The translations under genes were made by a program, and so were the position numbers. From the sequence record OQ885479: a DNA stretch of 64,000 nucleotides. One strand, 5' to 3'. The notes under the pieces were generated by a model. It did no database searches and was not told where the DNA came from. It worked only from the letters and a program-made list of their open reading frames with translations. This document shows, one piece after another, positions 1,778-38,706 of the stretch. The first letter of the stretch is position 1. Every line of letters begins with the position of its first letter. This DNA comes from Escherichia phage SUT_E1520.

Positions 1778-1855
1778 GGTTCTCAAGCTCATATGGTATG
1801 AGCACCCGGCTCATAACCGGAAGGTACGTAGGTTCGAATCCTCGGGGAGCCACCA
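1778..1855 (+). tRNA. tRNA with CAU anticodon (Met or Ile2 type)
   Basis: Manual fold: acceptor with two G-U pairs, D-arm GCTCATATGGTATGAGC, anticodon loop CTCATAA, T-loop GGTTCGAATCC, CCA. Confidence 0.55.
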
Positions 1856-5182: not shown

Positions 5183-5203
5183 AAACAATCAAACATTCTA
5201 GCG

Positions 5204-5316
5204 TGGTTGATGGGGAAACCAGCTTGGCGAGGGCAGAAGCTCGTTCGATTCGAGTGAAAGAATGGTTCTCGTAAGTCCGCACAAGTGATAACAGGTTCGA
5301 GTCCTGTCTAGAATGA
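5204..5316 (+). ncRNA. tRNA-like structured element 2 of 3 (about 112 nt): 8-bp acceptor-like helix, D-arm-like and canonical T-arm, no standard anticodon arm
   Basis: CATTCTAG / CTAGAATG closing helix; TGGTT-GATGGGGAA-ACCA; ACAGG-TTCGAGT-CCTGT. Confidence 0.35.
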
Positions 5317-5327
5317 CACTATAAAGT

Positions 5328-5438
5328 TTACTTATTATGTAGGTTCCGATAGATCGGCGGGTCTATTCTGGCACTTAAGAGAGGTCTCGCAAACTTCTTT
5401 GTCAGCCGTGGGGTTGGTAGCCTCCAGGTGGCCTACAC
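5328..5438 (+). ncRNA. structured non-coding element 3 of 3 (about 110 nt)
   Basis: TACTTATTATGTAGG pairs with CCTACACAATAAGTA; no ORF. Confidence 0.3.
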
Positions 5439-5464
5439 AATAAGTAAATTTATTAAAAATTCAT

Positions 5465-5493
5465 TTGCTATTATGCTTAATTCTCTGTATAAT
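5465..5493 (+). promoter_or_regulatory. T5-type early promoter
   Basis: TTGCTA-N17-TATAAT; leader ATAAAGTGTTGAGAAGG. Confidence 0.6.
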
Positions 5494-5525
5494 ATACCTT
5501 ATAAAGTGTTGAGAAGGAAAGCAAA

Positions 5526-6081: not shown

Positions 6082-6160
6082 AGATCGCTAGCTCAATAGG
6101 TTTAGTAGCATCCGACTTTTAATCGGAAGGTTCTGGGTTCGAGTCCCAGGCGATCTACCA
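6082..6160 (+). tRNA. tRNA-Lys (UUU)
   Basis: Acceptor AGATCGC/GCGATCT, anticodon arm TCCGA-CTTTTAA-TCGGA, T-arm CTGGGTTCGAGTCCCAG, CCA. Confidence 0.7.
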
Positions 6161-6178
6161 ATTTCAAGAAAAACGCAG

Positions 6179-6207
6179 TTGCTTAATGCTTAATTTCTTG
6201 TTATAAT
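6179..6207 (+). promoter_or_regulatory. T5-type early promoter driving a non-coding leader and downstream tRNAs
   Basis: TTGCTT-N17-TATAAT; leader ATAAATTGATGAGGAG but no ORF follows. Confidence 0.6.
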
Positions 6208-6214
6208 ATTTATA

Positions 6215-6445
6215 TAAATTGATGAGGAGAAATCCTCATCATAGTTCACTAAGGTATTAGCTCGACCTAGGACTGGCTGCCAAAAAGCACGATCCCTACG
6301 ATTCGGGAGAAGTTCTAGATTAGTCCACTAGGTTCAGCGGCAACTGAATAGTGTATCGGGTTTGCGAGATGACGCGGTTCCTTCCGCTTGAAGCGAAGGT
6401 GCTGTAGTTACGCCGAGCTAATAGCCTTAGTAAACTAAAGAATTT
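6215..6445 (+). ncRNA. promoter-proximal structured non-coding RNA candidate (about 230 nt) upstream of tRNA-Ala
   Basis: No ORF or tRNA fold; 9-bp long-range helix ATTAGCTCG (6256-6264) with CGAGCTAAT (6414-6422). Confidence 0.35.
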
Positions 6446-6524
6446 GGGGAATGGGTCTGCATGGAGTGGACACCTCGCTTGCACCGAGGACATCAGAACG
6501 GTTCGATTCCGTTATTCTCCACCA
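6446..6524 (+). tRNA. tRNA-Ala (UGC)
   Basis: Acceptor GGGGAAT/ATTCTCC, anticodon arm CCTCG-CTTGCAC-CGAGG, T-arm AACGGTTCGATTCCGTT, CCA. Confidence 0.65.
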
Positions 6525-6606: not shown

Positions 6607-6718
6607 AATTTGATGGTCAGAGTAAATTAAACCTACTATCTCGGTTGAGCTGTTTTAATGGGTTCGAATCCCAGCGAGGCGTAACTGCCTGGTGTGATAG
6701 AGGCATCATCTTATTATT
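6607..6718 (+). ncRNA. non-coding segment with an orphan T-arm (GGGTTCGAATCCCAG) and no recognisable acceptor stem
   Basis: Canonical T-loop near 6658-6672 but no complementary 5-prime/3-prime acceptor halves found by hand. Confidence 0.25.
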
Positions 6719-6809
6719 GGAAGAGCAAATCGAATTGGCGACGAAAACCGCTTGGAAAGTGGCTGACTGGTAAAACGGCTTGAGAGTTCAAATCTCTCCT
6801 CTTCCGCCA
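6719..6809 (+). tRNA. tRNA-Ser (GGA), class II
   Basis: Acceptor GGAAGAG/CTCTTCC, loop TTGGAAA, long variable arm, T-arm GAGAGTTCAAATCTCTC, CCA. Confidence 0.6.
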
Positions 6810-6821
6810 AACAATTTATAT

Positions 6822-6916
6822 GGTAGGTCAATCCAATGGCTGGCGCTGGACTCCGACTTGAAATCGGTTGATCGTAGTGATACGGTGTAAGGGTTCGATC
6901 CCCTTACCTACCTCCA
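6822..6916 (+). tRNA. tRNA-Ser (UGA), class II with a very long variable arm (95 nt total)
   Basis: Acceptor GGTAGGT/ACCTACC, anticodon arm CCGA-CTTGAAA-TCGG, T-arm AAGGGTTCGATCCCCTT, CCA. Confidence 0.6.
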
Positions 6917-7062
6917 AATCCTGAAGTATGCCGGAATCGGTAGACGGGGCTGCCTAAAAGGTTTATAGGGAACATCCACTCCCTGCAACATACCTCATAA
7001 AGCGGCTGAGATAAATGGTCTATCTCGTGAAGGTTCAAGTCCTTCTGCTTCTTGATACACCA
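6917..7062 (+). ncRNA. non-coding structured segment containing a T-arm-like hairpin (GAAGG-TTCAAGT-CCTTC); not resolved as a tRNA
   Basis: No ORF; several local hairpins, including GAGATA-AATGGTC-TATCTC. Confidence 0.25.
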
Positions 7063-7282
7063 ATGGCTCAAAGTGTAACGGTGCTATTTGATGCGCTTAG
7101 TAAGACTTCCCCGACATGCGTTCGGGAGTAAGCTGCTAAGACTAGAGTAGAAGAGTTTCTGAGAGCCGCCACAATTGAAAATTCGTACTCGTCTTGAGCT
7201 GCGTGCAATAGGAGATAACTTGATTAGTATTCTAGAACATGCTAATTGAGGAAGGTTTCGCTAACCCTGCGAGTTTTCAATT
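7063..7282 (+). ncRNA. non-coding structured segment with a 13-bp long-range helix
   Basis: CCACAATTGAAAA (7169-7181) pairs with TTTTCAATTGTGG (7273-7285); no ORF, no canonical T-loop. Confidence 0.3.
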
Positions 7283-18434: not shown

Positions 18435-18463
18435 TTGCTTTTTGCTAAAAATTTTGGTATAAT
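18435..18463 (+). promoter_or_regulatory. T5-type early promoter
   Basis: TTGCTT-N17-TATAAT; leader ATATAAATTGATAAGAGAG. Confidence 0.55.
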
Positions 18464-18574
18464 ACTTATATAAATTGATAAGAGAGCCATTAATATGCTT
18501 ACGCCACCTATCTTTGCAGGGATTTTAGCCATATTAATGGACATCTTTGCCACTCAAGAAATAGGAGTATTACG

Positions 18575-29110: not shown

Positions 29111-29211
29111 AATAACTCCCTAGTAAATATATTTTTGCCAATAGTGGCGAATGTTATCGCCACCAGCGGAATCATTAGCGGCCTTACTATTACCAACGAA
29201 AATATATAATC

Positions 29212-29571
29212 TCATTGCGCCACCTTTCGAAACGCTGTTTCAATACTATCCGCAGTGGATTGAATATATGCGCCTTTCATTATCAGGCGCTCGGTACATA
29301 CCTTGCGGAAAATATTAATAAAATCATCTTCATTTTCTGCAATTAATGCTTCACCCATAACCTGAACGTCACAAGATGCAAAGGTCAAAAATTGAAACGC
29401 TAGTTCACGGGCAACGACCGCATTAATTTTATAATGTGCCTTGCCCTCATAAATATTAATAACGCCCTTATAAGCTGGGGAAAGCTGATTTAAATAGTTT
29501 GCTAATAATGCTGGGCGGCAATTAGCAACAAAACGATTGCCTTCATAAATTATCATTTGCATAGCTCCCAA
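29212..29571 (-). CDS. hypothetical protein (TTG start per track; first ATG at 29562)
   Basis: ORF track. Confidence 0.5.
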   Translation of the reverse strand: MGAMQMIIYEGNRFVANCRPALLANYLNQLSPAYKGVINIYEGKAHYKINAVVARELAFQFLTFASCDVQVMGEALIAENEDDFINIFRKVCTERLIMKGAYIQSTADSIETAFRKVAQ

Positions 29572-29675
29572 ATAGTTCCGCCGATGATCATTAGCTGACT
29601 AATAATTATCAGAATAAAACCAATTGAAGGCAGGACGCCCCAAAAACGAAAAGCCGTTTTAATTTGCTGAATCAT
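29553..29675 (-). CDS. small membrane peptide (40 aa)
   Basis: Overlapping-coupled with its neighbours; single TM segment; below the track cutoff. Confidence 0.3.
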   Translation of the reverse strand: MIQQIKTAFRFWGVLPSIGFILIIISQLMIIGGTIWELCK

Positions 29676-29802
29676 TTGTTAGCCTCCCGATTAGATAGCC
29701 AGATAAAAGCATAAAGATCCCCAATGAAATGGGGTCATTTTTAAATAAGGTGGCGATAAAACCGCCAGCCATTGCAAGGATAATAACAATAACGCTTTTC
29801 AT
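29659..29802 (-). CDS. small membrane peptide (47 aa)
   Basis: ATGA overlap with the upstream stop; TM segment; below the track cutoff. Confidence 0.3.
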   Translation of the reverse strand: MKSVIVIILAMAGGFIATLFKNDPISLGIFMLLSGYLIGRLTNDSAN

Positions 29803-30011
29803 AGTACCCCACGAAACGCAGCGTAAAAGGTGGCAAAGTGTTTAACTGTTTCAGCTATCACGTTGCCGCGCTTATCAAATTTTTTCTCGGTAACACGAAA
29901 GGCATTTTTGTTACGTGCTACATATTCGATTTTACAATCTTCCCGCTCGAACGTGTTAACATCCACCAGCTTAAAGCCTTTCGAACGTGCAAGGGAAACG
30001 TTGCGGATCAT
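29799..30011 (-). CDS. hypothetical protein (70 aa)
   Basis: ORF track; SD AAGGAGA upstream. Confidence 0.45.
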   Translation of the reverse strand: MIRNVSLARSKGFKLVDVNTFEREDCKIEYVARNKNAFRVTEKKFDKRGNVIAETVKHFATFYAAFRGVL

Positions 30012-30013
30012 TT

Positions 30014-30163
30014 TTATTCTCCTTTACTAGTCATGCAGCCCAGCAGATAAGAAAACGCAGCAATGCCAGCGCCAATAATAACGGCGTGAACGCCAAAAGC
30101 TATTGCAAACAACGATAAAATAGCGCCCAAGATACCCGCCAGAATAGCTCGAAAAATAACCAT
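30014..30163 (-). CDS. small membrane peptide (49 aa)
   Basis: SD GGAGAAT upstream; TM segment; below the track cutoff. Confidence 0.3.
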   Translation of the reverse strand: MVIFRAILAGILGAILSLFAIAFGVHAVIIGAGIAAFSYLLGCMTSKGE

Positions 30164-30213
30164 TTTTTTTTATTCTCCTAGTCAGTGAGGGATATAATAT
30201 CCCCCGTTACTAA

Positions 30214-30444
30214 TTACATTAAAACAATTTTTGCAGCTTGTTTTTTAGTACAGTGTTCCGCTTTCAGCGTGTCCAGCAAAAAGCCCGCCGTTTGCTGATC
30301 GATTTTATCGGCGTTGTATAGTTCTTGGATGGTGTTATAAGTTTTAGCAATGCCGAACTCCTGCACCATTTCATGAATAATGGCGCGGTTAGATACCCAG
30401 CCTTGAGCGGTGAACAGATGAGTAGCAGAAGAGTAAGCAACCAT
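30214..30444 (-). CDS. hypothetical protein (76 aa)
   Basis: ORF track. Confidence 0.45.
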   Translation of the reverse strand: MVAYSSATHLFTAQGWVSNRAIIHEMVQEFGIAKTYNTIQELYNADKIDQQTAGFLLDTLKAEHCTKKQAAKIVLM

Positions 30445-30548
30445 TTTAAGCCTCCAAATTTTTGGGAAATTTTTAATCCACCGTTTTGGTGTAAAAGCAT
30501 TATAACAAAAAAGGCCACCATAAAAGGCGACCTTTACAAAACTTTACA

Positions 30549-31043
30549 TTAAACTACCTGTAAGGATTCAACATTGAAACATCGTTTTAATTCATCATGT
30601 AAAACAGCGTATTCCTCCCATCGGGTATTATCAGGAATATAAACAAGCTGTTTTAATCGATTTGCGTATATTACCGCTTTATTATCAATTATTTCGACGC
30701 CACCATATTTAATAATTAATTTCATGACGGAATTAATAGGATCGCCGCCGTTTACATATGTGCCGGATTTACTTAATTGATAATGATAAAGGCCAGCATA
30801 TACGTTTTCATTTTCATACCATTCGCCAGTTTCTTCGTCTTCATAGCCATCGCTACCAAAACGAGAAGCATTATCAATAGCCATTTCATGAGCGAAAGCG
30901 TCCAGATCCGTACCAGCAGGAACAAAGTATTCCTCGGTATTCCCTTCCCCGCAATAGCCAGTATGACAATCGACTAAAATGATCATATCATGTTTAGCCG
31001 TGCTCACTTCCCCTAGCGAGAAGCCGTATTTTTCCTCAGCCAT
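30549..31043 (-). CDS. hypothetical protein (164 aa)
   Basis: ORF track; SD AGGAGG upstream. Confidence 0.55.
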   Translation of the reverse strand: MAEEKYGFSLGEVSTAKHDMIILVDCHTGYCGEGNTEEYFVPAGTDLDAFAHEMAIDNASRFGSDGYEDEETGEWYENENVYAGLYHYQLSKSGTYVNGGDPINSVMKLIIKYGGVEIIDNKAVIYANRLKQLVYIPDNTRWEEYAVLHDELKRCFNVESLQVV

Positions 31044-31108
31044 TTATTAGCCTCCTATTAATTAACAAGGGAGTAGTAAAGCGGGGAAATAATCCCCGCT
31101 AAATATTA

Positions 31109-32119
31109 TTACTCGCTTTCGGTGTTAGTGGTAAAAGTAGAAATATCAATACCTTTCACCATTTCATCAATCATTTCAGCGATGTTAAAACTTTGCACCA
31201 TTTCCAGCATTGCCGCTTCCATAGCCGCCCCCGCTACCGCTTTCGCCTTTTGGTTAGTCGGTGCGTACTGGTCAACCGCTACACTCAGCAGGTTAGCGAT
31301 CACTACACGACCAATAGGTGTATCGATATAACCTTTGATCATGAATGGTGCTTTTTTAGCCGCTACTTTCGTAATTTGAGTTAATGCAATTTTACCCGCC
31401 TCCAGTTTTGCAGCATTTACAACAGCGGATTTATTGGCGGCAACGATGTTAGCAATCTTGGTCATGGTGTTTTTTCCTTTGTTTTCAGTAGTTTGAGTGT
31501 TAACGCTTTGAGTGTTAGAATTTACAGCATGGTTTTCTACGCTGTCAATAATCTGATCTTCATCTTTCCAGAAAGAAAAACCAGCGCTTTCTATATCCCC
31601 ATCATAAATATATGGGTATAGCTCCCGTGGTAACAAAAAATTACCGTCGCCATCAAAAGCCATTATACCGGTATATTGAGATCCGTCGTTATCCGGCTTA
31701 TGCCATCCAGCGGGTAAATACTTCCAGATAACATCTAAAAATCCCTCAATGCTAGAAAGTCCATTTATCAGATCAAGTCCAATAAGCTCAAAACTATTTA
31801 TATTAAATGATTGACGGCCTGAATTGCTATGATACGCAACAATATTATTACCCTGCGCAACAATAAAATCGGTATCCGGCCCCGCTCCCCTGCCTGTAAA
31901 GATATGGCAATCCCGATTATATAAAACTAGCGTTGCCCCTTGTCTATATAAGGGTAGAAAACTATCCATATCATAAGCGTCATAATCATCAAAAAAGTTT
32001 TGATGAATAGTTTCAATCTTGTTAATAAAATGTTTAATGCTGGTTGACTTGCTACCGTCTAGCAGGTTGCGCAATGCACCCTTTAATACGGTGGCATTAT
32101 CAGGTTTATACAGCCTCAT
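31109..32119 (-). CDS. hypothetical protein (336 aa), first gene of the minus-strand operon
   Basis: ORF track; SD GAGGAGG upstream. Confidence 0.6.
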   Translation of the reverse strand: MRLYKPDNATVLKGALRNLLDGSKSTSIKHFINKIETIHQNFFDDYDAYDMDSFLPLYRQGATLVLYNRDCHIFTGRGAGPDTDFIVAQGNNIVAYHSNSGRQSFNINSFELIGLDLINGLSSIEGFLDVIWKYLPAGWHKPDNDGSQYTGIMAFDGDGNFLLPRELYPYIYDGDIESAGFSFWKDEDQIIDSVENHAVNSNTQSVNTQTTENKGKNTMTKIANIVAANKSAVVNAAKLEAGKIALTQITKVAAKKAPFMIKGYIDTPIGRVVIANLLSVAVDQYAPTNQKAKAVAGAAMEAAMLEMVQSFNIAEMIDEMVKGIDISTFTTNTESE

Positions 32120-32385
32120 TTGTTAGGCCTCCTCGTTAATCGGTGAGTGAATGATAAAGGTAAATTTCTAGCATAGGCAAATATTATTTTACCTTTTTAT
32201 TTTCCTTGCCTAGCGCCTATTTTTATGATAACCGCGCAGCGGTGCAATAAAGAGCAAACCACGGCGAAGCCACCAGGCCGACGCATTGAGGCTTTACTTT
32301 AATATTACCTTACAGCGTTTAGCTCGTTAGAATGCGATTTAAGCCGCTTAAAATTGATTGCAGTTGTTAACACTACCTTTTTACC

Positions 32386-32500
32386 CTGTATAAATATACA
32401 GTAGGATAACCTGTGGATAAGTCTGTGTAAAAGTCCTTATATCGCCGCCTATCGTGTCAAGTCAAAAAGTGCTGTGGATAACTTTGTGTATAACTTAAAT
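32386..32500 (+). repeat. right arm of the inverted repeat, with LexA-like box and two TGTGGATAA DnaA boxes
   Basis: LexA-like box at 32386-32401; DnaA boxes at 32412-32420 and 32473-32481. Confidence 0.6.
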
Positions 32501-32830
32501 GATAGTGGTTCTCACTTAGCTAGATGATTTCTTATAGTTATTATTTCTCATTAATTTATATGTATATTATATATCATGAAATAGTTAGTTGGCTAATGAG
32601 ATTTTTCCGTGATTAATAGTCTGCTAATAATTCAGGTCGTTACAATCCACCAGCATGATTATCATTCTAGCAATTATTAGTCTGCTATCTTTCCGATGCA
32701 TACTAACAAATAAAAGTCAATTAATTTATTTCATAAAATAAGTAGTTATCCACTGGAAAATAAAAGTCAAGTGGATAACTAGGAAAATTTCATTTTTGCT
32801 TTTGGGGATAAGTTATCAACAAGGCTAGAA
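32500..32830 (+). other. AT-rich region with further DnaA-box-like 9-mers; origin-like or host-factor binding region
   Basis: TTATCCACT near 32746, GTGGATAAC near 32771, TTATCAACA near 32813; very AT-rich 32520-32720. Confidence 0.4.
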
Positions 32831-33225
32831 TGCGCCTAAAACGCTCCAGAACGCAATAAAGTTTTTAGCCATCCCATCATAAGGGGATAAGCCGTTTATC
32901 GTTACCACGAGCTTTTTAGATTTTGTCAAGTAGGGCAAAGCAAATATAAATGAAAAAATTACTTGCCTATTTGCTTTATTTTGTGGTATTCGCGCGCCCG
33001 TTTCTTTTAATTTTAGGCCGTCGCCGCACGGTGTCCGGTGAGTTTTACCTTTACATTTCTTTACAAAAATAAGGTTGCGCCATTTTCGGGAATCCCCTAT
33101 TATTTATCTCGTAGGGCGGCAATGACGAACTACACGGCGGGAAGTTTACCGCCACGCTCTTTAAAAATTGGGTACATCTTAAAGCCTATCGGCGGTAAAC
33201 TTATTCATTATAAGGAATCGACGAT

Positions 33226-33429
33226 ATGAAACAAACGCTTTTGATCACTGGCAAGCCTATTAAGGCACTAGATAGCAAAACAAAAAATTTGTTGACAGTA
33301 GCTCAAAGATCAGTAAGATATAGATTCACGCAGTACAAGAAAGGTCGCCAGCAAGGTCTGGAAATGATCTGGCGAAATATTATGATTGACCTAAAAGAAA
33401 ATCATAAAAAATTGCAAAAAATTGTTTGA
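33226..33429 (+). CDS. hypothetical basic protein (67 aa), flanked by a 25-bp inverted repeat
   Basis: ORF track; inverted repeat arms at 33169-33193 and 33437-33461. Confidence 0.3.
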   Translation: MKQTLLITGKPIKALDSKTKNLLTVAQRSVRYRFTQYKKGRQQGLEMIWRNIMIDLKENHKKLQKIV

Positions 33430-33659
33430 CAACCTAGCCGATAGGTTTTAAGATGTACCCAGTTCGATAAGAGCGATAACTTGATAAAATTTGACGGTCG
33501 GTGCTTACCATAATGCATCCCGCCCCCTAACGGGATATAGCGGCCTACGTGGAGTTCTTTAAAATTGATTATATTGGCGAGCGGATTGTTACTTATTACC
33601 TGCTGTTACTTTCTAGCAGGTAATGCGGAACAATCCCCAAATAACTAGGAGTTTATATT

Positions 33660-33911
33660 ATGCAAAACGTTATTACCGCGCCGAAAGTTGGTCAATCCGT
33701 CTTCATTCCTTTCGTTACTAAAACGGATGAATTAACCGGAAAGGCCGAACGTATTAAAGGTGCGGCGCTTATGCCGTTCGATACAATCGACGCGGTATAC
33801 GCTGAAAATGAACGTAGTAACAACGGCAAGCCCGTTTTTAGCGTTCGCGTTAAATCCGGCGATGTTGTAAAGGTTGTTCAACGCAACGAAAAATGGGAAG
33901 CTGTATTGTAA
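33660..33911 (+). CDS. pre-early protein (hypothetical)
   Basis: ORF track; SD TAGGAG; 10-bp-stem hairpin upstream at 33595-33624. Confidence 0.5.
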   Translation: MQNVITAPKVGQSVFIPFVTKTDELTGKAERIKGAALMPFDTIDAVYAENERSNNGKPVFSVRVKSGDVVKVVQRNEKWEAVL

Positions 33912-34007
33912 ATTAGTGTTAACTTTATATCCCCTTATTTCAGGGGGATATAACGATTAACATTAAGTTAATCTAATCCCTTAAATTAAACTAATAGGAG
34001 TTACATC

Positions 34008-34415
34008 ATGACTAACGCTAAAACCGCAAAATTCGCATGGAATGAAGAAAACACTCAGAAAGCTGTTTCCATGTATCAACAGTTAATTAATGAAAACGGT
34101 TTAGATTTCGCAAATAGCGACGGTTTAAAAGAGATTGCAAAAGCAGTGGGCGCGGCTTCTCCCGTATCCGTTCGGTCAAAATTGACCAGCGCAAAAGCAT
34201 ATCAAAAAAGCGATAAGCCTCGCAAAGTTGGCGGCGGTAGTTCAATCCGCAAAGCTCATTATGTACGCGTTATTGCAAAACACGCTATCGATTCCGGCAT
34301 TATCAAAGATGCCGATGATCTGGCAAGCCTTGAAAGTGCAAAACTTGAAACGCTGGACGCAGTAGCGCAATTGTTAGGCGTTGCCGATGAAGTAAAACAA
34401 GCCGCAGGCGAATAA
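34008..34415 (+). CDS. A2-like pre-early protein (putative DNA-binding)
   Basis: 135 aa, immediately upstream of A1; assignment by position and size only. Confidence 0.4.
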   Translation: MTNAKTAKFAWNEENTQKAVSMYQQLINENGLDFANSDGLKEIAKAVGAASPVSVRSKLTSAKAYQKSDKPRKVGGGSSIRKAHYVRVIAKHAIDSGIIKDADDLASLESAKLETLDAVAQLLGVADEVKQAAGE

Positions 34416-34507
34416 TAGTTATACCTTGCCCCCTTTTTTAGTGAGGGGGCAATAATATAACTGTTTAGCGATAGTTATTTTCTTCCCTTAAATCAGGAGT
34501 TTTTAAA

Positions 34508-34705
34508 ATGATCTTTTATCCTACTGAATCATTAATTCTAGGCTTGTTTATTATGGCGGCCTCGTTATTGTTCGCTTATTTTCAAAATGATTTAGATTCG
34601 TATTATTTTAAACGTAAATCTAAGTTAGCAAAGCGTTTAGGTCTTATTTGTTTTATTGCCGCCGTTGCTTGTGGTGTTAGTTCTAGCCTTATGCCTTTAA
34701 ATTAA
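34508..34705 (+). CDS. small membrane protein
   Basis: ORF track; two hydrophobic segments. Confidence 0.45.
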   Translation: MIFYPTESLILGLFIMAASLLFAYFQNDLDSYYFKRKSKLAKRLGLICFIAAVACGVSSSLMPLN

Positions 34706-34795
34706 TGTTGCAAATTATAACGCCTATTATTCGAGGCGTTATATTTGGCAATATTGCCGTTATTAATCTAATCCCTTTAATGGAGTTTTATTATC

Positions 34796-36460
34796 ATGAT
34801 TATTTCCGCAGAAAAACAAACCGTTATCCTGAAAATGGCCGCTGACTTTAATTTCTATGGTAAACGTCTGCGCGCTACTAAACTGGAAGTCTGCGACGAT
34901 ATATCAAAAGCGGTCTACGATACAACGAAACACTCCACCGCCATTTGTGATTGGTTGGAAGCAAATAAACCAGCGAAACCGAAAGCGGCGAAAGTAGCAA
35001 AAGCCATTAAAAACGACGAGCGCCCAGAAGCGGCGGGGGTTGTTTCTAGCACGGTTGAACAGTGGGAAGTAAAACAAGGCAAACGCTTTATTATTACATC
35101 GATTCAGAATAATACTTTCCCGCATAAAAACTTTTTGGCCTCACTTGAACAATATGCCAAATTTATCGGCGCTGATTTGCTCGTTTCTAAGTATATTTAT
35201 AATAAAAACGGTTTTCAAAATGGGGAAGGTGCGGATGGAATCAAATATGATTCCGCGTTTGATAAATATATTTGCAGCAAAAACGTGTTTTTAAATAACC
35301 GCCGTTTCGCTTTCATGGCTGAAATTAATGTTTTGCCAACCGCAGATTATCCGCTTTCTGGATTCGCAGAAACTGCAACGGCTTTAAATATTGAAGGTCT
35401 GGCAATTGGTCACGCTAAAATCACCGCTGAAAGTGTGCCAGCTTTAAAAGGTGAAGTAGTGCGCCGTATGTATTCAACCGGAACGGCAACGCTCAAAAAC
35501 TACATTCAGCAGAAAGCAGGACAAAAGGCCGAGGCGCTGCATAACTTCGGTGCGCTTATTGTTGAGTTCGACGACGACGGGGAATTTTTTGTACGCCAGC
35601 TTGAAACGATGGACGAAAGCGGGGTGTTTTATGATCTGAACGTTTGCGCTACTCCTGCCGGATGCTATGAAACATCGGGGCATGTTTTAGGCTTGCAGTA
35701 TGGCGATATTCACGCCGAAAAATTAGATGATGATTGTGCCGTTGCGTCATGGGCTGGCGAGAATAGTTTGCTTGATATTCTTAAACCAAAATATCAGCTT
35801 ATTCATGACGTGCATGATTTTACATCGCGCAATCATCATAACCGTGCATCCGGTGTATTCCTAGCGAAACAGTATGCCGCCGGACGTGATAAAGTTCTGG
35901 ATGATCTTATCGATACGGGGCGCGTGCTGGAATCAATGGAACGTGATTTTAGTCAAACAATCATCGTAGAATCGAATCACGATTTGGCGCTATCCCGCTG
36001 GCTTGATGATCGTAATGCTAACATTAAAGACGATCCCGCCAACGCCGAACTATATCACCGCCTAAATGCTGCAATTTACGCGGCAATCGGTGAGCATGAC
36101 GATACTTTCAACGTGCTAGATTATGCGTTGCGCAAGGTTGCAGGTTGTGAGTTTAACGCCATTTTCCTAACCACTGACCAATCTTTCAAGATTGCAGGTA
36201 TTGAATGCGGCGTACACGGTCACAACGGCATTAACGGCAGCCGTGGCAACCCGAAACAATTTAAGAAATTGGGCAAGTTAAACACGGGGCATACGCATAC
36301 CGCCAGCATTTACGGCGGCGTATACACCGCTGGCGTAGCTGGTAGTCTGGATATGGGTTACAACGTTGGCGCGTCAAGCTGGACGCAGACGCATTTAATT
36401 ACCTATGCAAACGGTCAGCGCACTTTGATTGACTTTAAAAACGGTAAATTCTTTGCGTAA
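34796..36460 (+). CDS. A1: A1-like pre-early protein, calcineurin/Mre11-like metallophosphoesterase (probable DNase)
   Basis: 554 aa; motifs GDIHAE, HDFTSRNHHN and GHTHTAS. Confidence 0.7.
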   Translation: MIISAEKQTVILKMAADFNFYGKRLRATKLEVCDDISKAVYDTTKHSTAICDWLEANKPAKPKAAKVAKAIKNDERPEAAGVVSSTVEQWEVKQGKRFIITSIQNNTFPHKNFLASLEQYAKFIGADLLVSKYIYNKNGFQNGEGADGIKYDSAFDKYICSKNVFLNNRRFAFMAEINVLPTADYPLSGFAETATALNIEGLAIGHAKITAESVPALKGEVVRRMYSTGTATLKNYIQQKAGQKAEALHNFGALIVEFDDDGEFFVRQLETMDESGVFYDLNVCATPAGCYETSGHVLGLQYGDIHAEKLDDDCAVASWAGENSLLDILKPKYQLIHDVHDFTSRNHHNRASGVFLAKQYAAGRDKVLDDLIDTGRVLESMERDFSQTIIVESNHDLALSRWLDDRNANIKDDPANAELYHRLNAAIYAAIGEHDDTFNVLDYALRKVAGCEFNAIFLTTDQSFKIAGIECGVHGHNGINGSRGNPKQFKKLGKLNTGHTHTASIYGGVYTAGVAGSLDMGYNVGASSWTQTHLITYANGQRTLIDFKNGKFFA

Positions 36461-36515
36461 TTAAATTATTTCCCTAGCGGCTTGAAATATAGCCGCTATT
36501 TCAGGAGTCACAAAA

Positions 36516-36773
36516 ATGAAAGTTACATTACCCAAAACACTGGACGAAAAAGTATTCATTTCACCGGATGAAATGGAATCTGATAAAGTTTACAGCTTCG
36601 GGCCTATCCTAGCCGCTAAAACTAATACTGATGGCGTTATTTCCGTAGATTACCGTGATAATGATGTTGTTCCTTTTGATGACGATAGCGCTTTTTATGA
36701 GTGGCTAAGTGATAATAATCTACCCGTAAACGGTGAATTAACGCCGTACCAGATGCAGATTATTATCAAATAA
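36516..36773 (+). CDS. pre-early protein (hypothetical)
   Basis: ORF track. Confidence 0.5.
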   Translation: MKVTLPKTLDEKVFISPDEMESDKVYSFGPILAAKTNTDGVISVDYRDNDVVPFDDDSAFYEWLSDNNLPVNGELTPYQMQIIIK

Positions 36774-36811
36774 TTTAAATCCATTATTAAACTAATTGGG
36801 GTTTTATAAAT

Positions 36812-37204
36812 ATGAAAAAGCAAAATATTCCATTCGATCGCGCTCAGTCTTCCATTGTTCTGGTTTATTCTAATGGTGAACGTTATCACGTCGAGGCGTG
36901 GCACGTTATTGATGAATTGTTAGATTTCAATGATGCGATGCAGGTTACAACATTTGCATATATGCAAGGCAAACTAACAAGCCATATTAAAGCAAAAGGC
37001 GTTTATATTGACACGGTGAAACAAGAAACGATTATCATCGACGCAGTAAAATCCGGCCTAGCCTTTGCAGTTGTCGCGCCTTGCCTCGCTTGCCTTGATG
37101 ATCAGCTAGCGAGCGCAAAGGTATATACCTGCGCGGGTATTCGTTCCCATGTATCAGGTGAGGATATTAGTTTTATTGCTGATGCGTTGGCTTATGGTCT
37201 TTAA
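36812..37204 (+). CDS. pre-early protein (hypothetical)
   Basis: ORF track. Confidence 0.5.
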   Translation: MKKQNIPFDRAQSSIVLVYSNGERYHVEAWHVIDELLDFNDAMQVTTFAYMQGKLTSHIKAKGVYIDTVKQETIIIDAVKSGLAFAVVAPCLACLDDQLASAKVYTCAGIRSHVSGEDISFIADALAYGL

Positions 37205-37283
37205 TAGTTGATTTATTATTACCCGCTTATAAATAGCGGGTAATGCTGGATAAACTAAATCCCTTTAATGGAGAACGTAACAA

Positions 37284-38018
37284 ATGAATAAAGCTATTAT
37301 GAATATTTCCCGTAATTTCCCGCATATTTCCCGCGTCATGATTTGGGATTTAGACGGCACTATCATTAATTCTTTCCATCGTGTAGCGCCTTGCTTTGAT
37401 AGTGAGGGCAATTTAGATTTAAATAAGTATAAAAATGAAGCCTGCAAACATCATTTAATAATGCAAGATACTTTATTGCCATTGGTTGAATATATGCGCC
37501 AATGTATGAATGATGCAAATACTTTAAACATTATTTGCACCGCTCGACTAATGAGCAAGTCGGACTATTATTATTTGCGTAAACAAGGGTTGCGCGGTCG
37601 TGGTGATAGTAATATCCGTGTATTTTCCCGCGATACACTACACAAATATTTTGAAGCTGATAAAGTTAGCGAGATATACCACAGCAAAGACGCCATTTAT
37701 AAATCGTATTATTTTGAATTATTTAAACAATTATATCCAAACGCTGACTTTACAATGATTGACGATCATAAAGGCGTGCTATCAGCGGCGGCATCATACG
37801 GATTTAAAACGCTGGACGCGCAAGCCATTAACGATATTCTATCAATCGGCGTTGCATTGATAGGTGAAACCTTTATCGATGAATCTCTCGATGATGATAA
37901 TGATTATCAGTTCCTAGCTGATCGTTTGAAATTATGTTGGGAAAGTATGACCGAGGAAGAACGCGCAGAATATAGTTGCAGCCCGCAACAATATATTGAG
38001 AAATTAAAAGTTGCGTAA
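37284..38018 (+). CDS. dmp: 5-prime-deoxyribonucleotidase, HAD-superfamily phosphatase
   Basis: 244 aa; HAD motif I DLDGT near the N-terminus and a later DD motif. Confidence 0.7.
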   Translation: MNKAIMNISRNFPHISRVMIWDLDGTIINSFHRVAPCFDSEGNLDLNKYKNEACKHHLIMQDTLLPLVEYMRQCMNDANTLNIICTARLMSKSDYYYLRKQGLRGRGDSNIRVFSRDTLHKYFEADKVSEIYHSKDAIYKSYYFELFKQLYPNADFTMIDDHKGVLSAAASYGFKTLDAQAINDILSIGVALIGETFIDESLDDDNDYQFLADRLKLCWESMTEEERAEYSCSPQQYIEKLKVA

Positions 38019-38032
38019 TAATTAAAGTTGAA

Positions 38033-38069
38033 ATAGTCACGGTGTGTAATGATAACATGCCGTGACTAT
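38033..38069 (+). terminator. stem-loop after dmp (terminator-like)
   Basis: ATAGTCACGG...CCGTGACTAT hairpin. Confidence 0.45.
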
Positions 38070-38082
38070 TAGCTTGCTAAGT

Positions 38083-38100
38083 ACCGGGCGGTAATGAGAC
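38083..38100 (+). promoter_or_regulatory. third copy (one mismatch) of the Fur-box-like palindrome
   Basis: AATGAGACTCATTCTCAT between dmp and the small-membrane-protein operon. Confidence 0.45.
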
Positions 38101-38169
38101 TCATTCTCATCTGGGGAGCCACTGGACACACCTCCATGTGTAATCTTATGAAATTTGACAAAAGTCGAA

Positions 38170-38415
38170 TTAGCGCATAGAAGGGTCATCAAACCTGTGT
38201 TCTGGTCTGAACTCCCGGAATCTCTTCCGCGACGCCCGAGATCCATCCGACCACTCTCGCTCAAACTCCGCACGTTTCTCGTCAAACTTCCGCTCCCTTT
38301 CCGCAATCTCCCGCGTCACTCCCGCAATATATTCCCGATGCTTATTGATTGCCGCAGTCGTCCCGAAAACTCCCGCGAGTATCCCGATAATAAAAGCAAT
38401 TATAATACTAAACAT
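38170..38415 (-). CDS. small membrane protein with a charged C-terminal tail (81 aa)
   Basis: ORF track; last gene of a translationally coupled minus-strand operon. Confidence 0.45.
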   Translation of the reverse strand: MFSIIIAFIIGILAGVFGTTAAINKHREYIAGVTREIAERERKFDEKRAEFEREWSDGSRASRKRFREFRPEHRFDDPSMR

Positions 38416-38602
38416 CTAATTCCCTCTCAATTTGCAGAATACGGGTGCTATCACAACGTTGCAGTAGTACTAGCTTTTCTAGAATAACTTGTTGTTGTTT
38501 TACCTGGGCTTCTAGAGTTTTTAGGCGGAGATACACGATACGAGAGACAATGAGGATTACCCAGACTAATATTACCATTAGTGTAATTGCCACTTCCATC
38601 AT
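38408..38602 (-). CDS. small single-pass membrane protein, paralog family member (64 aa)
   Basis: ORF track; TM helix and C-terminal RILQIERELD-like motif. Confidence 0.45.
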   Translation of the reverse strand: MMEVAITLMVILVWVILIVSRIVYLRLKTLEAQVKQQQVILEKLVLLQRCDSTRILQIERELDV

Positions 38603-38706
38603 TTATGTTTCTCCGATAGTAAGGTTTCGATTCTAGCTAAGTGATTATCTAAGATACATTGCCCAATAATCACAATCCCCAGTAGTGCAATAATTACCCA
38701 TTCCAT
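38599..38706 (-). CDS. small single-pass membrane protein, paralog family member (35 aa)
   Basis: MEWVIIALLG...RIETLLSEKHK; TAATG and ATGATG overlaps with neighbours; below the track cutoff. Confidence 0.35.
   Translation of the reverse strand: MEWVIIALLGIVIIGQCILDNHLARIETLLSEKHK

What the first reader, a model, noticed from the sequence alone, without database searches (positions are those of the whole stretch)
6215..6445. Promoter-driven non-coding leader of about 230 nt upstream of tRNA-Ala
A canonical early promoter (6179-6207) with the usual leader is followed not by a gene but by about 230 nt with no ORF and no tRNA fold, enclosed by a 9-bp long-range helix (ATTAGCTCG at 6256-6264 with CGAGCTAAT at 6414-6422). 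A dedicated promoter feeding a structured RNA suggests a stable small RNA rather than spacer.
Basis: seen in the sequence. Interest (0 to 1): 0.6.

Follow-up and report, generated by a model that had tools for sequence, protein, structure and literature searches.

The report
T5-family stable structured RNA RNA2H
The promoter-fed "leader" before tRNA-Ala is a real, intricately folded non-coding RNA: it is the counterpart of phage T5's annotated stable RNA "RNA2H", its fold is kept in most T5-like phage groups tested, and its function is still unknown.

Summary
Window 6255-6426 is 98.3% identical to the misc_RNA "rna2H / RNA2H: stable RNA with unknown functions" of phage T5 (AY543070). The same feature is annotated in BF23 and DT571/2. 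Window 6160-6233 matches the annotated T5 promoter P13b.

I found homologs in Tequintavirus, Epseptimavirus, phage Eos, Sugarlandvirus (Klebsiella), Hongcheonvirus (Pectobacterium), Novosibvirus (Proteus) and Shenzhenvirus (Aeromonas). None was detected in Vibrio phage pVp-1.

Across these lineages 44 of 59 nested base pairs show compensatory changes. Two pseudoknots also covary: a 5' single strand pairs with the loops of hairpins P3 and P4.

There is no Rfam family, tRNA fold, plus-strand ORF, terminator or E. coli homolog.

The annotated mature ends sit in the middle of P1 with a 2-nt 3' overhang, which suggests RNase III excision (inferred).

The RNA lies inside deletions carried by viable T5 mutants, so it is dispensable in the laboratory.

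Most likely it is an abundant early RNA that acts in trans by binding a partner. That function is inferred, not shown.

The parts
6179..6207 (+). Early sigma-70 promoter (T5 'P13b' homolog): -35 TTGCTT 6179-6184, 17-nt spacer, -10 TATAAT 6202-6207. The predicted start is about 6214-6215.
   Evidence: Read. The T5 regulatory feature 'promoter P13b' maps to window 6160-6233. The same promoter-plus-leader recurs at 18435-18478.
6220..6241 (+). Leader hairpin UGAUGAGGA-GAAA-UCCUCAUCA. It contains the RBS-like GAGGAG of the generic early leader. It is not part of the conserved RNA core: it is absent in Klebsiella phages and Eos, and is interrupted by a ~95-nt insertion in some relatives.
   Evidence: A 9-bp perfect inverted repeat. 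Variants run A-U, G.U, G-C, with A.C in T5. The insertion is shown.
6243..6264 (+). P1, 5' strand. Outer part is AGUUCACUAAGG (6243-6254), then U6255, then inner part AUUAGCUCG (6256-6264).
   Evidence: 98.6% of cells are paired, and 14 of 21 pairs show compensatory change across lineages.
6414..6436 (+). P1, 3' strand. Inner part is CGAGCUAAU (6414-6422), then AG (6423-6424), then outer part CCUUAGUAAACU (6425-6436).
   Evidence: Same evidence as the P1 5' strand.
6255..6426 (+). Mature RNA2H (172 nt), taken from the T5 and BF23 annotations. The 5' end falls after G6254 and the 3' end after C6426, which gives a 2-nt 3' overhang in the middle of P1.
   Evidence: T5 misc_RNA 31808-31979 maps to 6255-6426 at 98.3% identity. 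The overhang geometry is my reading of the P1 pairing.
6265..6268 (+). P6, 5' strand ACCU. It pairs with GGGU at 6358-6361 and stacks on P1.
   Evidence: Versions are ACCU:GGGU, AUAC:GUAU, ACAC:GUGU, CAG:CUG and AAC:GUU. All cells are paired on an alignment that had not been fitted to this helix.
6270..6276 (+). Pseudoknot PK1, 5' strand GGACUGG. It pairs with the P3 loop UUAGUCC at 6320-6326.
   Evidence: Versions are GGACU:AGUCC (T5), AGUC:GACU and AGCC:GGCU (Klebsiella phages), GAACC:GGUUC (Eos, Pectobacterium), AGAAC:GUUCU (Proteus) and GACGG:UCGUC (Aeromonas, read).
6278..6281 (+). Pseudoknot PK2, 5' strand UGCC. It pairs with GGCA (6339-6342) in the P4 loop and is followed by the conserved A-run 6282-6286.
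   Evidence: Versions are UGCC:GGCA, ACCA:UGGU, AAUCA:UGAUU and GCCA:UGGC. GGCA is kept in all Tequintavirus P4-loop variants.
6287..6290 (+). Px, 5' strand GCAC. It pairs with GUGU at 6351-6354 and closes the P2/P3/P4 junction.
   Evidence: It is nearly invariant (GCAC or ACAC with GUGU) but reads AUGU:GCAU in Proteus phage RP7. One sequence (L036) breaks it.
6293..6308 (+). P2, a variable hairpin (UCCC 6293-6296 with GGGA 6305-6308). Other lineages carry longer, unrelated hairpins here.
   Evidence: All five pairs show compensatory change.
6314..6332 (+). P3 hairpin (UCUAG 6314-6318 with CUAGG 6328-6332). Its loop carries the PK1 3' strand.
   Evidence: UCUAG/CUAGA changes to UCUGAU/AUCAGA within Epseptimavirus, and to CGGAG/CUCCG, UUCCG/CGGAA and GGGA/UCCC elsewhere.
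6333..6348 (+). P4 hairpin (UUCAG 6333-6337 with CUGAA 6344-6348). Its loop CGGCAA carries the PK2 3' strand.
6351..6361 (+). J4/5, GUGUAUCGGGU. It carries the 3' strands of Px (6351-6354) and P6 (6358-6361).
6364..6413 (+). P5, a long irregular hairpin. Its base is GCG 6364-6366 with CGC 6411-6413, directly abutting the P1 3' strand. Two unrelated modules (types A and B) are exchanged among lineages.
   Evidence: The base pair covaries as C-G, U-A and A-U. 8 of the 11 inner pairs are compensatory.
6437..6445 (+). A 9-nt spacer (AAAGAAUUU) before tRNA-Ala(UGC) at 6446-6524. No terminator lies here, so the RNA and the tRNAs are probably one transcript.

Best explanation
SHOWN: This is the gene for the T5-family stable RNA RNA2H. 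It is a ~172-nt non-coding RNA (a ~194-nt conserved element including the outer stem) with a compact fold. A ~22-bp closing helix P1 is followed by a short stacked helix P6. Next comes a single-stranded 5' segment whose two halves pair with the loops of hairpins P3 and P4 (pseudoknots PK1 and PK2). Then come an A-run, a short helix Px closing a junction of P2, P3 and P4, and a long variable hairpin P5. INFERRED: It is transcribed early by host RNA polymerase from the P13b promoter, together with tRNA-Ala and tRNA-Leu. It is cut out of the precursor by RNase III in the middle of P1, because the annotated ends leave a 2-nt 3' overhang. RNase P would then trim the downstream tRNA. INFERRED, with lower confidence (about 0.3): the mature RNA acts in trans through its folded core, by binding and sequestering or assisting a conserved host or phage factor. 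That would make it a protein or ligand decoy or an RNP cofactor, probably linked to the accessory role of the tRNA cluster in translation support or counter-defence. It would not act by coding, by long antisense pairing or as a switch for the downstream genes.
For: Identity: RNA2H and promoter P13b of T5 map onto 6255-6426 (98.3%) and 6160-6233, and the same annotation is in BF23 and DT571/2. Structure: z = -6.3. On 26 sequences 95.1% of cells are paired, with 26 of 51 compensatory pairs against 8 or fewer in slid controls. On 17 sequences from seven lineages 94.9% are paired, with 44 of 59 compensatory pairs against 13 or fewer. P6 was tested on an alignment not fitted to it and is 100% paired. 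PK1 and PK2 are complementary and colinear in every lineage with different sequences. Strand: conserved G.U pairs would be A.C on the other strand, and the plus-strand score is 218-233 bits against about 31 for the minus strand. It is not coding, not a tRNA and not a known family. No terminator lies between the RNA and tRNA-Ala. Breadth: 420 phage records carry the T5 type and 81 the Klebsiella type, plus Pectobacterium, Proteus and Aeromonas T5-like phages. Trans-acting rather than tRNA-specific: the downstream neighbour is tRNA-Ala in T5, Klebsiella phages and Eos, tRNA-Leu in DU_PP_V, and a CDS in RP7. In Aeromonas phage AhP_Mru1 the downstream neighbour is an unannotated tRNA-like sequence about 6 nt after P1, upstream of the annotated tRNA-Tyr. 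Processing: the outer P1 lies outside the annotated mature RNA, yet it is conserved and covaries. The annotated ends are offset by 2 bp across a 22-bp duplex.
Against: I had no expression, end-mapping or binding data, and the basis of the annotated ends (experiment or prediction) is not stated in the records. RNase III cleavage is therefore geometry-based inference. The RNA is dispensable. Viable T5 deletion mutants reported in PMC11464382 (deletions 30661-38625 and 29191-32442) span T5 31808-31979, assuming the same coordinate system. One T5-like genome (L057, probably FFH_1) has the core deleted. Few junction nucleotides are invariant across all lineages, which argues neither for nor against a catalytic or ligand-binding core. 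No partner is identified. Short seed pairing (under 11 nt) with host mRNAs cannot be excluded.
Confidence: 0.6

Rival explanations
1. It is a cis-acting leader of the tRNA operon. The folded 5' element would only protect the precursor from 5'-end-dependent decay or provide an RNase III entry site that sets up maturation of the downstream tRNAs, and the excised piece would have no function of its own.
For: The RNA is directly followed (6-11 nt) by a tRNA in T5-like, Klebsiella, Eos and Pectobacterium phages, and by an unannotated tRNA-like sequence in the Aeromonas phage. No terminator lies between them. The most sequence-conserved part is the outer P1 stem.
Against: In Proteus phage RP7 the next gene is a CDS, and the downstream tRNA differs between lineages. 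A simple stem would be enough for protection or processing, yet two covarying pseudoknots, P6 and Px are maintained across genera. The T5 record calls it a stable RNA.
Confidence: 0.15
2. It is a base-pairing regulatory sRNA that targets host or phage mRNAs through one of its conserved single-stranded stretches (the A-run, J2/3 or J4/5).
For: Conserved unpaired stretches exist: CAAAAARCAC and AGUGUA.
Against: No complementarity of 11 nt or more to the rest of the 64-kb window was found, against about 5.6 expected by chance. There is no significant match in 5,426 E. coli genomes and no terminator or U-tail. The conserved stretches differ between lineages that infect different hosts, while the architecture is what is kept.
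Confidence: 0.1
3. It is a ribozyme or a ligand-binding aptamer, for example a self-processing RNA or an RNA sponge for a small molecule.
For: A compact double-pseudoknot core with variable peripheral hairpins is typical of ribozymes and riboswitch aptamers. High early expression would suit a sponge.
Against: There is no match to any Rfam ribozyme or riboswitch, even at E up to 10, in three lineages. There is no expression platform. Few strictly invariant junction nucleotides are shared by all lineages. Both annotated ends lie inside a duplex, which fits a protein nuclease better than self-cleavage.
Confidence: 0.1
4. It is non-functional: a decayed tRNA, an intron remnant, or a spacer that happens to fold.
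For: The tRNA region of T5-like phages is mosaic, with degenerate tRNA-like pieces nearby. The element is deletable.
Against: Compensatory changes affect 44 of 59 pairs across phages of six host genera (Escherichia, Salmonella, Klebsiella, Pectobacterium, Proteus, Aeromonas). It has a dedicated promoter in T5, Klebsiella, Eos and Aeromonas phages. No tRNA signal is detected.
Confidence: 0.02

Closest known systems
Phage T5 / BF23 misc_RNA 'rna2H' (RNA2H, 'stable RNA with unknown functions'; AY543070 31808-31979, AJ604530 4056-4227)
   Same: It is the same gene: 98.3% identity over 172 nt, the same promoter (P13b) upstream and tRNA-Ala(UGC) downstream.
   Different: There are only point differences. 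In the window the tRNA-Val that precedes the promoter in T5 and BF23 is absent. The records give no structure or function.
Other small stable RNAs embedded in phage tRNA clusters: T5 RNA1, RNA2, RNAI, RNAIII and RNAIV (annotated in AY543070), and phage T4 'species 1/species 2' RNAs (rnaC/rnaD; from my own knowledge, not checked here)
   Same: They are co-located and probably co-transcribed with phage tRNAs, processed to discrete stable species, deletable, and of unknown function.
   Different: RNA2H is not tRNA-like and is not a paralog of the others. Both covariance models find a single copy in the window. Some of the others are annotated as tRNA-like.
Large structured RNAs found next to tRNA genes in phages and prophages (ROOL, GOLLD; Rfam families; association with tRNAs from my own knowledge)
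   Same: They are orphan, elaborately folded phage-associated RNAs near tRNAs with no known mechanism.
   Different: Those are about 3-4 times larger and occur mainly in Gram-positive bacteria and other phyla. No Rfam family matches this RNA at any threshold.
RNase III-processed precursor stems (for example 16S/23S rRNA flanking stems and T7 early mRNA sites; established knowledge)
   Same: A ~22-bp duplex is formed by sequences flanking the mature RNA. It has a central asymmetric bulge, and the annotated ends are staggered by 2 nt.
   Different: Cleavage by RNase III was not tested. The enclosed RNA is only about 170 nt.
Protein-sequestering structured RNAs closed by a long 5'/3' helix (6S RNA; bacterial Y RNA / YrlA)
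   Same: They are abundant, stable, act in trans through shape rather than pairing, and have a long terminal helix.
   Different: There is no central bubble (6S) and no tRNA-like domain (YrlA), and no Rfam hit. The double pseudoknot has no counterpart in those families.

Membership tests
T5 RNA2H (GenBank misc_RNA rna2H) | Sequence homology to T5 31808-31979 | tested here: met
   98.3% identity over 172 of 172 nt, mapping to window 6255-6426. The feature is listed under the match.
T5 RNA2H (GenBank misc_RNA rna2H) | Synteny: promoter P13b upstream, tRNA-Ala(UGC) then tRNA-Leu(UAG) downstream | tested here: met
T5 RNA2H (GenBank misc_RNA rna2H) | Accumulates as a discrete stable RNA in infected cells | not testable with these tools
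   Only the annotation text 'stable RNA' is available. No primary paper was found in the searchable library.
tRNA / tRNA-like RNA | Cloverleaf with T-arm and acceptor end | tested here: not met
   There is no ARAGORN call and no Rfam tRNA-clan hit in 6161-6445, even at E up to 10.
tmRNA | tRNA-like domain plus tag reading frame | tested here: not met
   ARAGORN finds no tmRNA. The only tmRNA_permuted hit (12.5 bits) lies over tRNA-Ala and tRNA-Leu, not over the RNA.
Any Rfam 15 family (riboswitches, ribozymes, 6S, Y RNA/YrlA, RNase P, ROOL, GOLLD and others) | Covariance-model score at or near the gathering threshold | tested here: not met
   Nothing overlaps the conserved RNA in the window, IrmaTschudi, Sugarland or Eos, apart from weak snoRNA-model matches (16.9-21.1 bits against gathering scores of 44-45) that clip only its first ~20 nt, at E up to 10.
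Transcription-terminating riboswitch or attenuator | Aptamer followed by an alternative terminator/antiterminator before the regulated gene | tested here: not met
   No plus-strand terminator-like site lies in 6200-6450. P1 closes the element 9 nt before the tRNA.
RNase III substrate | About two turns of duplex (about 20 bp or more) | tested here: met
   P1 has 21 pairs plus a central bulge and is conserved in seven lineages.
RNase III substrate | Cleavage leaving 2-nt 3' overhangs, dependent on rnc | not testable with these tools
   The annotated ends (6255 and 6426) fit this geometry, but their experimental basis is unknown.
Hfq-type base-pairing sRNA | Intrinsic terminator with U-tail and a seed complementary to targets | tested here: not met
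   There is no terminator, no complementarity of 11 nt or more in the window, and no E. coli match. Short seeds were not testable.
Small protein gene | Conserved ORF on the transcribed strand | tested here: not met
   No plus-strand ORF of 20 aa or more is present. The substitution pattern is pairwise-compensatory.

The most novel reading that the evidence does not exclude
RNA2H founds an undescribed class of compact double-pseudoknot RNAs conserved in most Demerecviridae lineages tested. It would be an abundant early RNA that works by shape. For example, it could be a decoy or sponge for a conserved host factor or a tRNA-directed defence nuclease, or the RNA subunit of a phage RNP. It would then explain part of why T5-like phages keep their deletable tRNA region.
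Probability: 0.35. Interest if true: 0.75.

Novelty: already known. Interest (0 to 1): 0.5.

Why it matters
The existence of the RNA is not news: it is annotated by name in the T5, BF23 and DT571/2 GenBank records. What this analysis adds is a covariation-backed structure (P1, P6, Px, P2-P5 and two pseudoknots), a probable processing route, and its presence in T5-like phages of six host genera (Escherichia, Salmonella, Klebsiella, Pectobacterium, Proteus, Aeromonas). Such conservation of a deletable, highly expressed early RNA in a region now known to hold counter-defence tRNAs makes an old orphan directly testable. The tests are a precise deletion challenged with defence-system panels, pull-downs and structure probing. 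If it proves to be an RNA decoy or RNP cofactor, it would add an RNA-based layer to phage takeover or anti-defence.

Tried and rejected
- **Rfam:** scans at gathering and at E up to 10 on the window and three homolog loci gave no family.
- **tRNA or tmRNA:** ARAGORN found none in the region.
- **Host origin or antisense target:** blastn against 5,426 E. coli genomes gave no match. A scan of 185,579 species' genomes with a two-block motif gave one hit in a Chitinophagaceae MAG that lacks every structural feature and scored nothing with the model, so it is chance.
- **Metagenome and IMG/VR scans:** these returned only T5-like and Sugarland-like phages.
- **Paralogy with T5 RNA2 or the other stable RNAs:** both covariance models find one copy in the window.
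- **RNAalifold's first model:** it paired CUAGGACU with AGUUCUAG and CACU with AGUG. I rejected it in favour of P3 plus PK1, because the AG-to-GA and CU-to-UC changes in Epseptimavirus are fully compensatory only in P3, and because PK1 covaries in the other lineages.
- **Obligatory link to the unusual tRNA-Ala(UGC):** that tRNA occurs in unrelated 56-176 kb phages without the RNA.
- **Chance resemblances:** by eye, and from memory of those sequences, the P1 ends resemble type I-F CRISPR repeat ends and PK1 resembles the sarcin-ricin loop. I dismissed both because neither is kept in the other lineages.
- **Vibrio phage pVp-1:** the model found no hit with filters off across 25-47 kb. The 336-nt gap before its tRNA-Leu(UAG) folds no better than shuffles, z = -0.6.
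- **Literature:** eight full-text searches found no paper on RNA2H.

Full report
**What the window is.** The region is the tRNA cluster of a T5-like phage. The query 6160-6450 is 100% identical to Escherichia phage SUT_E420 and 97% identical to phage T5. ARAGORN and Rfam place tRNA-Lys at 6082-6160 and tRNA-Ala(UGC) at 6446-6524, with nothing between them.

**Checking the observation.**
- The promoter is TTGCTT (6179-6184), 17 nt, TATAAT (6202-6207). It lies within the stretch that matches T5's annotated 'promoter P13b' (window 6160-6233).
- A generic TTGACA/TATAAT scan misses it because TTGCTT matches only three positions of the consensus.
- The promoter-plus-leader sequence recurs at 18435-18478, and promoter-like copies lie at other sites in the window.
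- No plus-strand ORF of 20 aa or more lies in the interval.
- The 9-bp complement 6256-6264 / 6414-6422 is exact. It extends to two adjacent arm pairs, 6255-6269/6409-6423 and 6242-6254/6425-6437.
- The 232-nt transcript folds at -85.4 kcal/mol against -58.9 +/- 4.2 for shuffles, z = -6.3.
The helix is ~22 bp rather than 9.

**It already has a name.** The T5 record AY543070 annotates a misc_RNA, gene rna2H, product RNA2H, 'stable RNA with unknown functions', at 31808-31979. It sits between promoter P13b and tRNA-Ala. BF23 (AJ604530) carries the same 172-nt feature, and DT571/2 lists rna2H under the match. RNA2H maps to window 6255-6426 at 98.3% identity. I found no paper on it in the searchable library. 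No Rfam family matches it in the window or in three homologs, even at E up to 10.

**Comparative structure within close relatives.**
- 420 phage records carry the element over at least 80% of its length.
- Tequintavirus and Epseptimavirus alignments show invariant blocks interrupted by two hairpins that are replaced wholesale. P2 is short UCCC/GGGA in one form and long UUGCAA-based in others. P5 comes as 'type A' or 'type B'.
- The P3 hairpin switches from UCUAG/CUAGA to UCUGAU/AUCAGA.
- The base of P5 runs through GCG/CGC, GUG/CAC and GAG/CUC.

**Distant homologs.** A weak blastn hit led to Klebsiella Sugarlandvirus phages and to phage Eos. There the element again sits between a T5-type promoter and tRNA-Ala.
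- A covariance model built from the close relatives scores these at 88-103 bits and finds only one copy in the window.
- A second model then detected Pectobacterium phage DU_PP_V (85.9 bits, before tRNA-Leu(UAG)) and Proteus phage RP7 (36.7 bits, before a CDS).
- It also detected Aeromonas phage AhP_Mru1 (43.1 bits). That copy has its own TTGCCC-17-TATAAT promoter and lies at the head of the tRNA cluster.
- Vibrio phage pVp-1 gave nothing.

**Covariation statistics.**
- On 26 sequences, 95.1% of cells are paired and 26 of 51 pairs carry compensatory changes, against 8 or fewer when partners are slid.
- On 17 sequences from seven lineages, 94.9% are paired and 44 of 59 pairs are compensatory, against 13 or fewer.
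- These alignments are fitted to the model, which favours the structure. Three things argue the signal is real: the slid controls, the direct reading of the sequences, and helix P6. P6 was discovered and counted on an alignment that did not contain it, and all its cells are paired.

**The fold, in window coordinates.**
- P1: 6243-6264 with 6414-6436.
- P6: ACCU 6265-6268 with GGGU 6358-6361.
- PK1: GGACUGG 6270-6276 with the P3 loop UUAGUCC 6320-6326.
- PK2: UGCC 6278-6281 with GGCA 6339-6342 in the P4 loop.
- A-run: 6282-6286.
- Px: GCAC 6287-6290 with GUGU 6351-6354.
- P2: 6293-6308. P3: 6314-6332. P4: 6333-6348. P5: 6364-6413.

**Support for the pseudoknots and Px.**
- PK1 reads GGACU:AGUCC in T5, and AGUC:GACU or AGCC:GGCU in different Klebsiella phages.
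- It reads GAACC:GGUUC in Eos and Pectobacterium, AGAAC:GUUCU in Proteus, and GACGG:UCGUC in Aeromonas.
- PK2 reads UGCC:GGCA, ACCA:UGGU, AAUCA:UGAUU or GCCA:UGGC.
- PK2 is short, and each instance alone is not significant. Its support is positional conservation with changing sequence.
- Px is nearly invariant but becomes AUGU:GCAU in Proteus.
- Conserved G.U pairs and the score asymmetry (about 220 bits against about 31) fix the plus strand as the RNA strand.

**Processing (inferred).** The annotated mature ends fall after G6254 and after C6426. G6254 pairs with C6425 and G6253 pairs with C6426. The two cuts are therefore offset by two base pairs in the centre of a 22-bp duplex, next to a conserved asymmetric bulge. 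This is the geometry RNase III leaves. The outer half of P1 is outside the mature RNA. Yet it is the most sequence-conserved part and it still covaries (for example C-G to U-A and A-U to G-C), which fits a processing signal. No terminator separates the RNA from tRNA-Ala. A common precursor, later trimmed by RNase P, is therefore likely. Whether the annotated ends were measured is unknown to me.

**Function (inferred).**
- The RNA is not coding, not a tRNA mimic detectable by current models and not a riboswitch with an expression platform.
- It has no long complementarity to the window or to E. coli.
- Its neighbour changes between lineages (tRNA-Ala, tRNA-Leu, a CDS), which weakens a purely cis role.
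- It is deletable. A T5-like genome (L057, the same length as FFH_1) has lost the core between GCTCGA microhomologies. Two viable T5 mutants described in PMC11464382 carry deletions that span its T5 coordinates.
- A strong early promoter, excision to a stable species, a compact conserved fold with free peripheral hairpins and an accessory status fit best with an abundant trans-acting RNA. Such an RNA would bind a conserved host or phage partner.
- I hold the identity and structure with high confidence (about 0.9), RNase III processing with moderate confidence (about 0.5), and the binding or decoy function with low confidence (about 0.3).

**Verdict.** The gene itself is already known as RNA2H. 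Its fold class is not in Rfam and its function is open. It is a well-defined orphan RNA kept in T5-like phages of six host genera, and it is now ready for experiment.

Noticed in passing
window 6607-6916: tRNA-like sequences that ARAGORN does not call. Sub-threshold tRNA-Sec-model hits lie at 6719-6805 (19.7 bits) and 6822-6912 (37.6 bits). They are counterparts of T5 tRNA-Ser2 and tRNA-Ser1. The HNH endonuclease gene hegC that T5 carries here is absent.
   Followed up: partly
window 5194-5318, 5337-5439, 6927-7064, 7065-7171, 7176-7279: Homologs of five more T5 'stable RNAs with unknown functions' (RNA2, RNAIV, RNA1, RNAI, RNAIII). None has an Rfam family at gathering threshold, and none matches the RNA2H model.
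   Followed up: partly
window 6160-6179 (junction between tRNA-Lys and the promoter): The tRNA-Val(UAC) that lies between tRNA-Lys and promoter P13b in T5 and BF23 is missing in this phage.
   Followed up: no
L003 460-574 (Obesumbacterium phage Ob_P); also L006, L031, L033, L044, L048: A ~95-nt insertion sits inside the leader hairpin, between UUGAUG and CAUCAA, upstream of the RNA in several relatives. Its nature is unknown.
   Followed up: partly
L037 1015-1227 (Klebsiella phage vB_Kpn_3, MZ079855, 'partial genome'): A chimeric copy: the 5' half is Sugarlandvirus-type and the 3' half is near-identical to Epseptimavirus type B. The P1 5' strand has no partner. This is either recombination inside the RNA gene or an assembly chimera.
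   Followed up: partly
L057 about 2237-2304 (IMG/VR 2706796640, 108,483 bp; same length as phage FFH_1, KJ190157): A natural deletion of the RNA core joins the P1 5' strand to the distal part of P5 at a GCTCGA microhomology. The promoter, the P1 3' strand and tRNA-Ala are retained.
   Followed up: partly
window 6446-6524; loci L054-L061: The downstream tRNA-Ala(UGC) has an atypical D-arm and scores only 36.3 bits on the Rfam tRNA model. A 23-nt identical D-stem/anticodon-arm segment occurs in unrelated large phage contigs of 21-176 kb that lack the RNA. It may be a widely shared phage tRNA variant.
   Followed up: partly
L036 (Salmonella phage JN-S202001), equivalents of window 6327 and 6352: Two substitutions (A to G in the P3 loop, U to C in Px) would be compensatory in an alternative helix CACU:AGUG but break Px. 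This could be a tertiary contact, a conformational switch or chance.
   Followed up: partly
P5, window 6364-6413 and homologs: Two unrelated P5 modules are distributed without regard to phage taxonomy. Type A is in T5, Eos and UTK0009. Type B is in most Epseptimavirus and in Sugarlandvirus. The type-B apical loop UGGCUAAU resembles the P1 3' strand.
   Followed up: no
window 1778-1852: Rfam finds a tRNA (40.3 bits) that ARAGORN did not report.
   Followed up: no
L055 about 2700-2940 and L060 about 5270-5500 (IMG/VR contigs of 141 kb and 59 kb): Long tRNA-like sequences (acceptor-like ends, a GGTTCGA T-arm motif and large insertions) lie just upstream of the shared tRNA-Ala in unrelated phages.
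   Followed up: no
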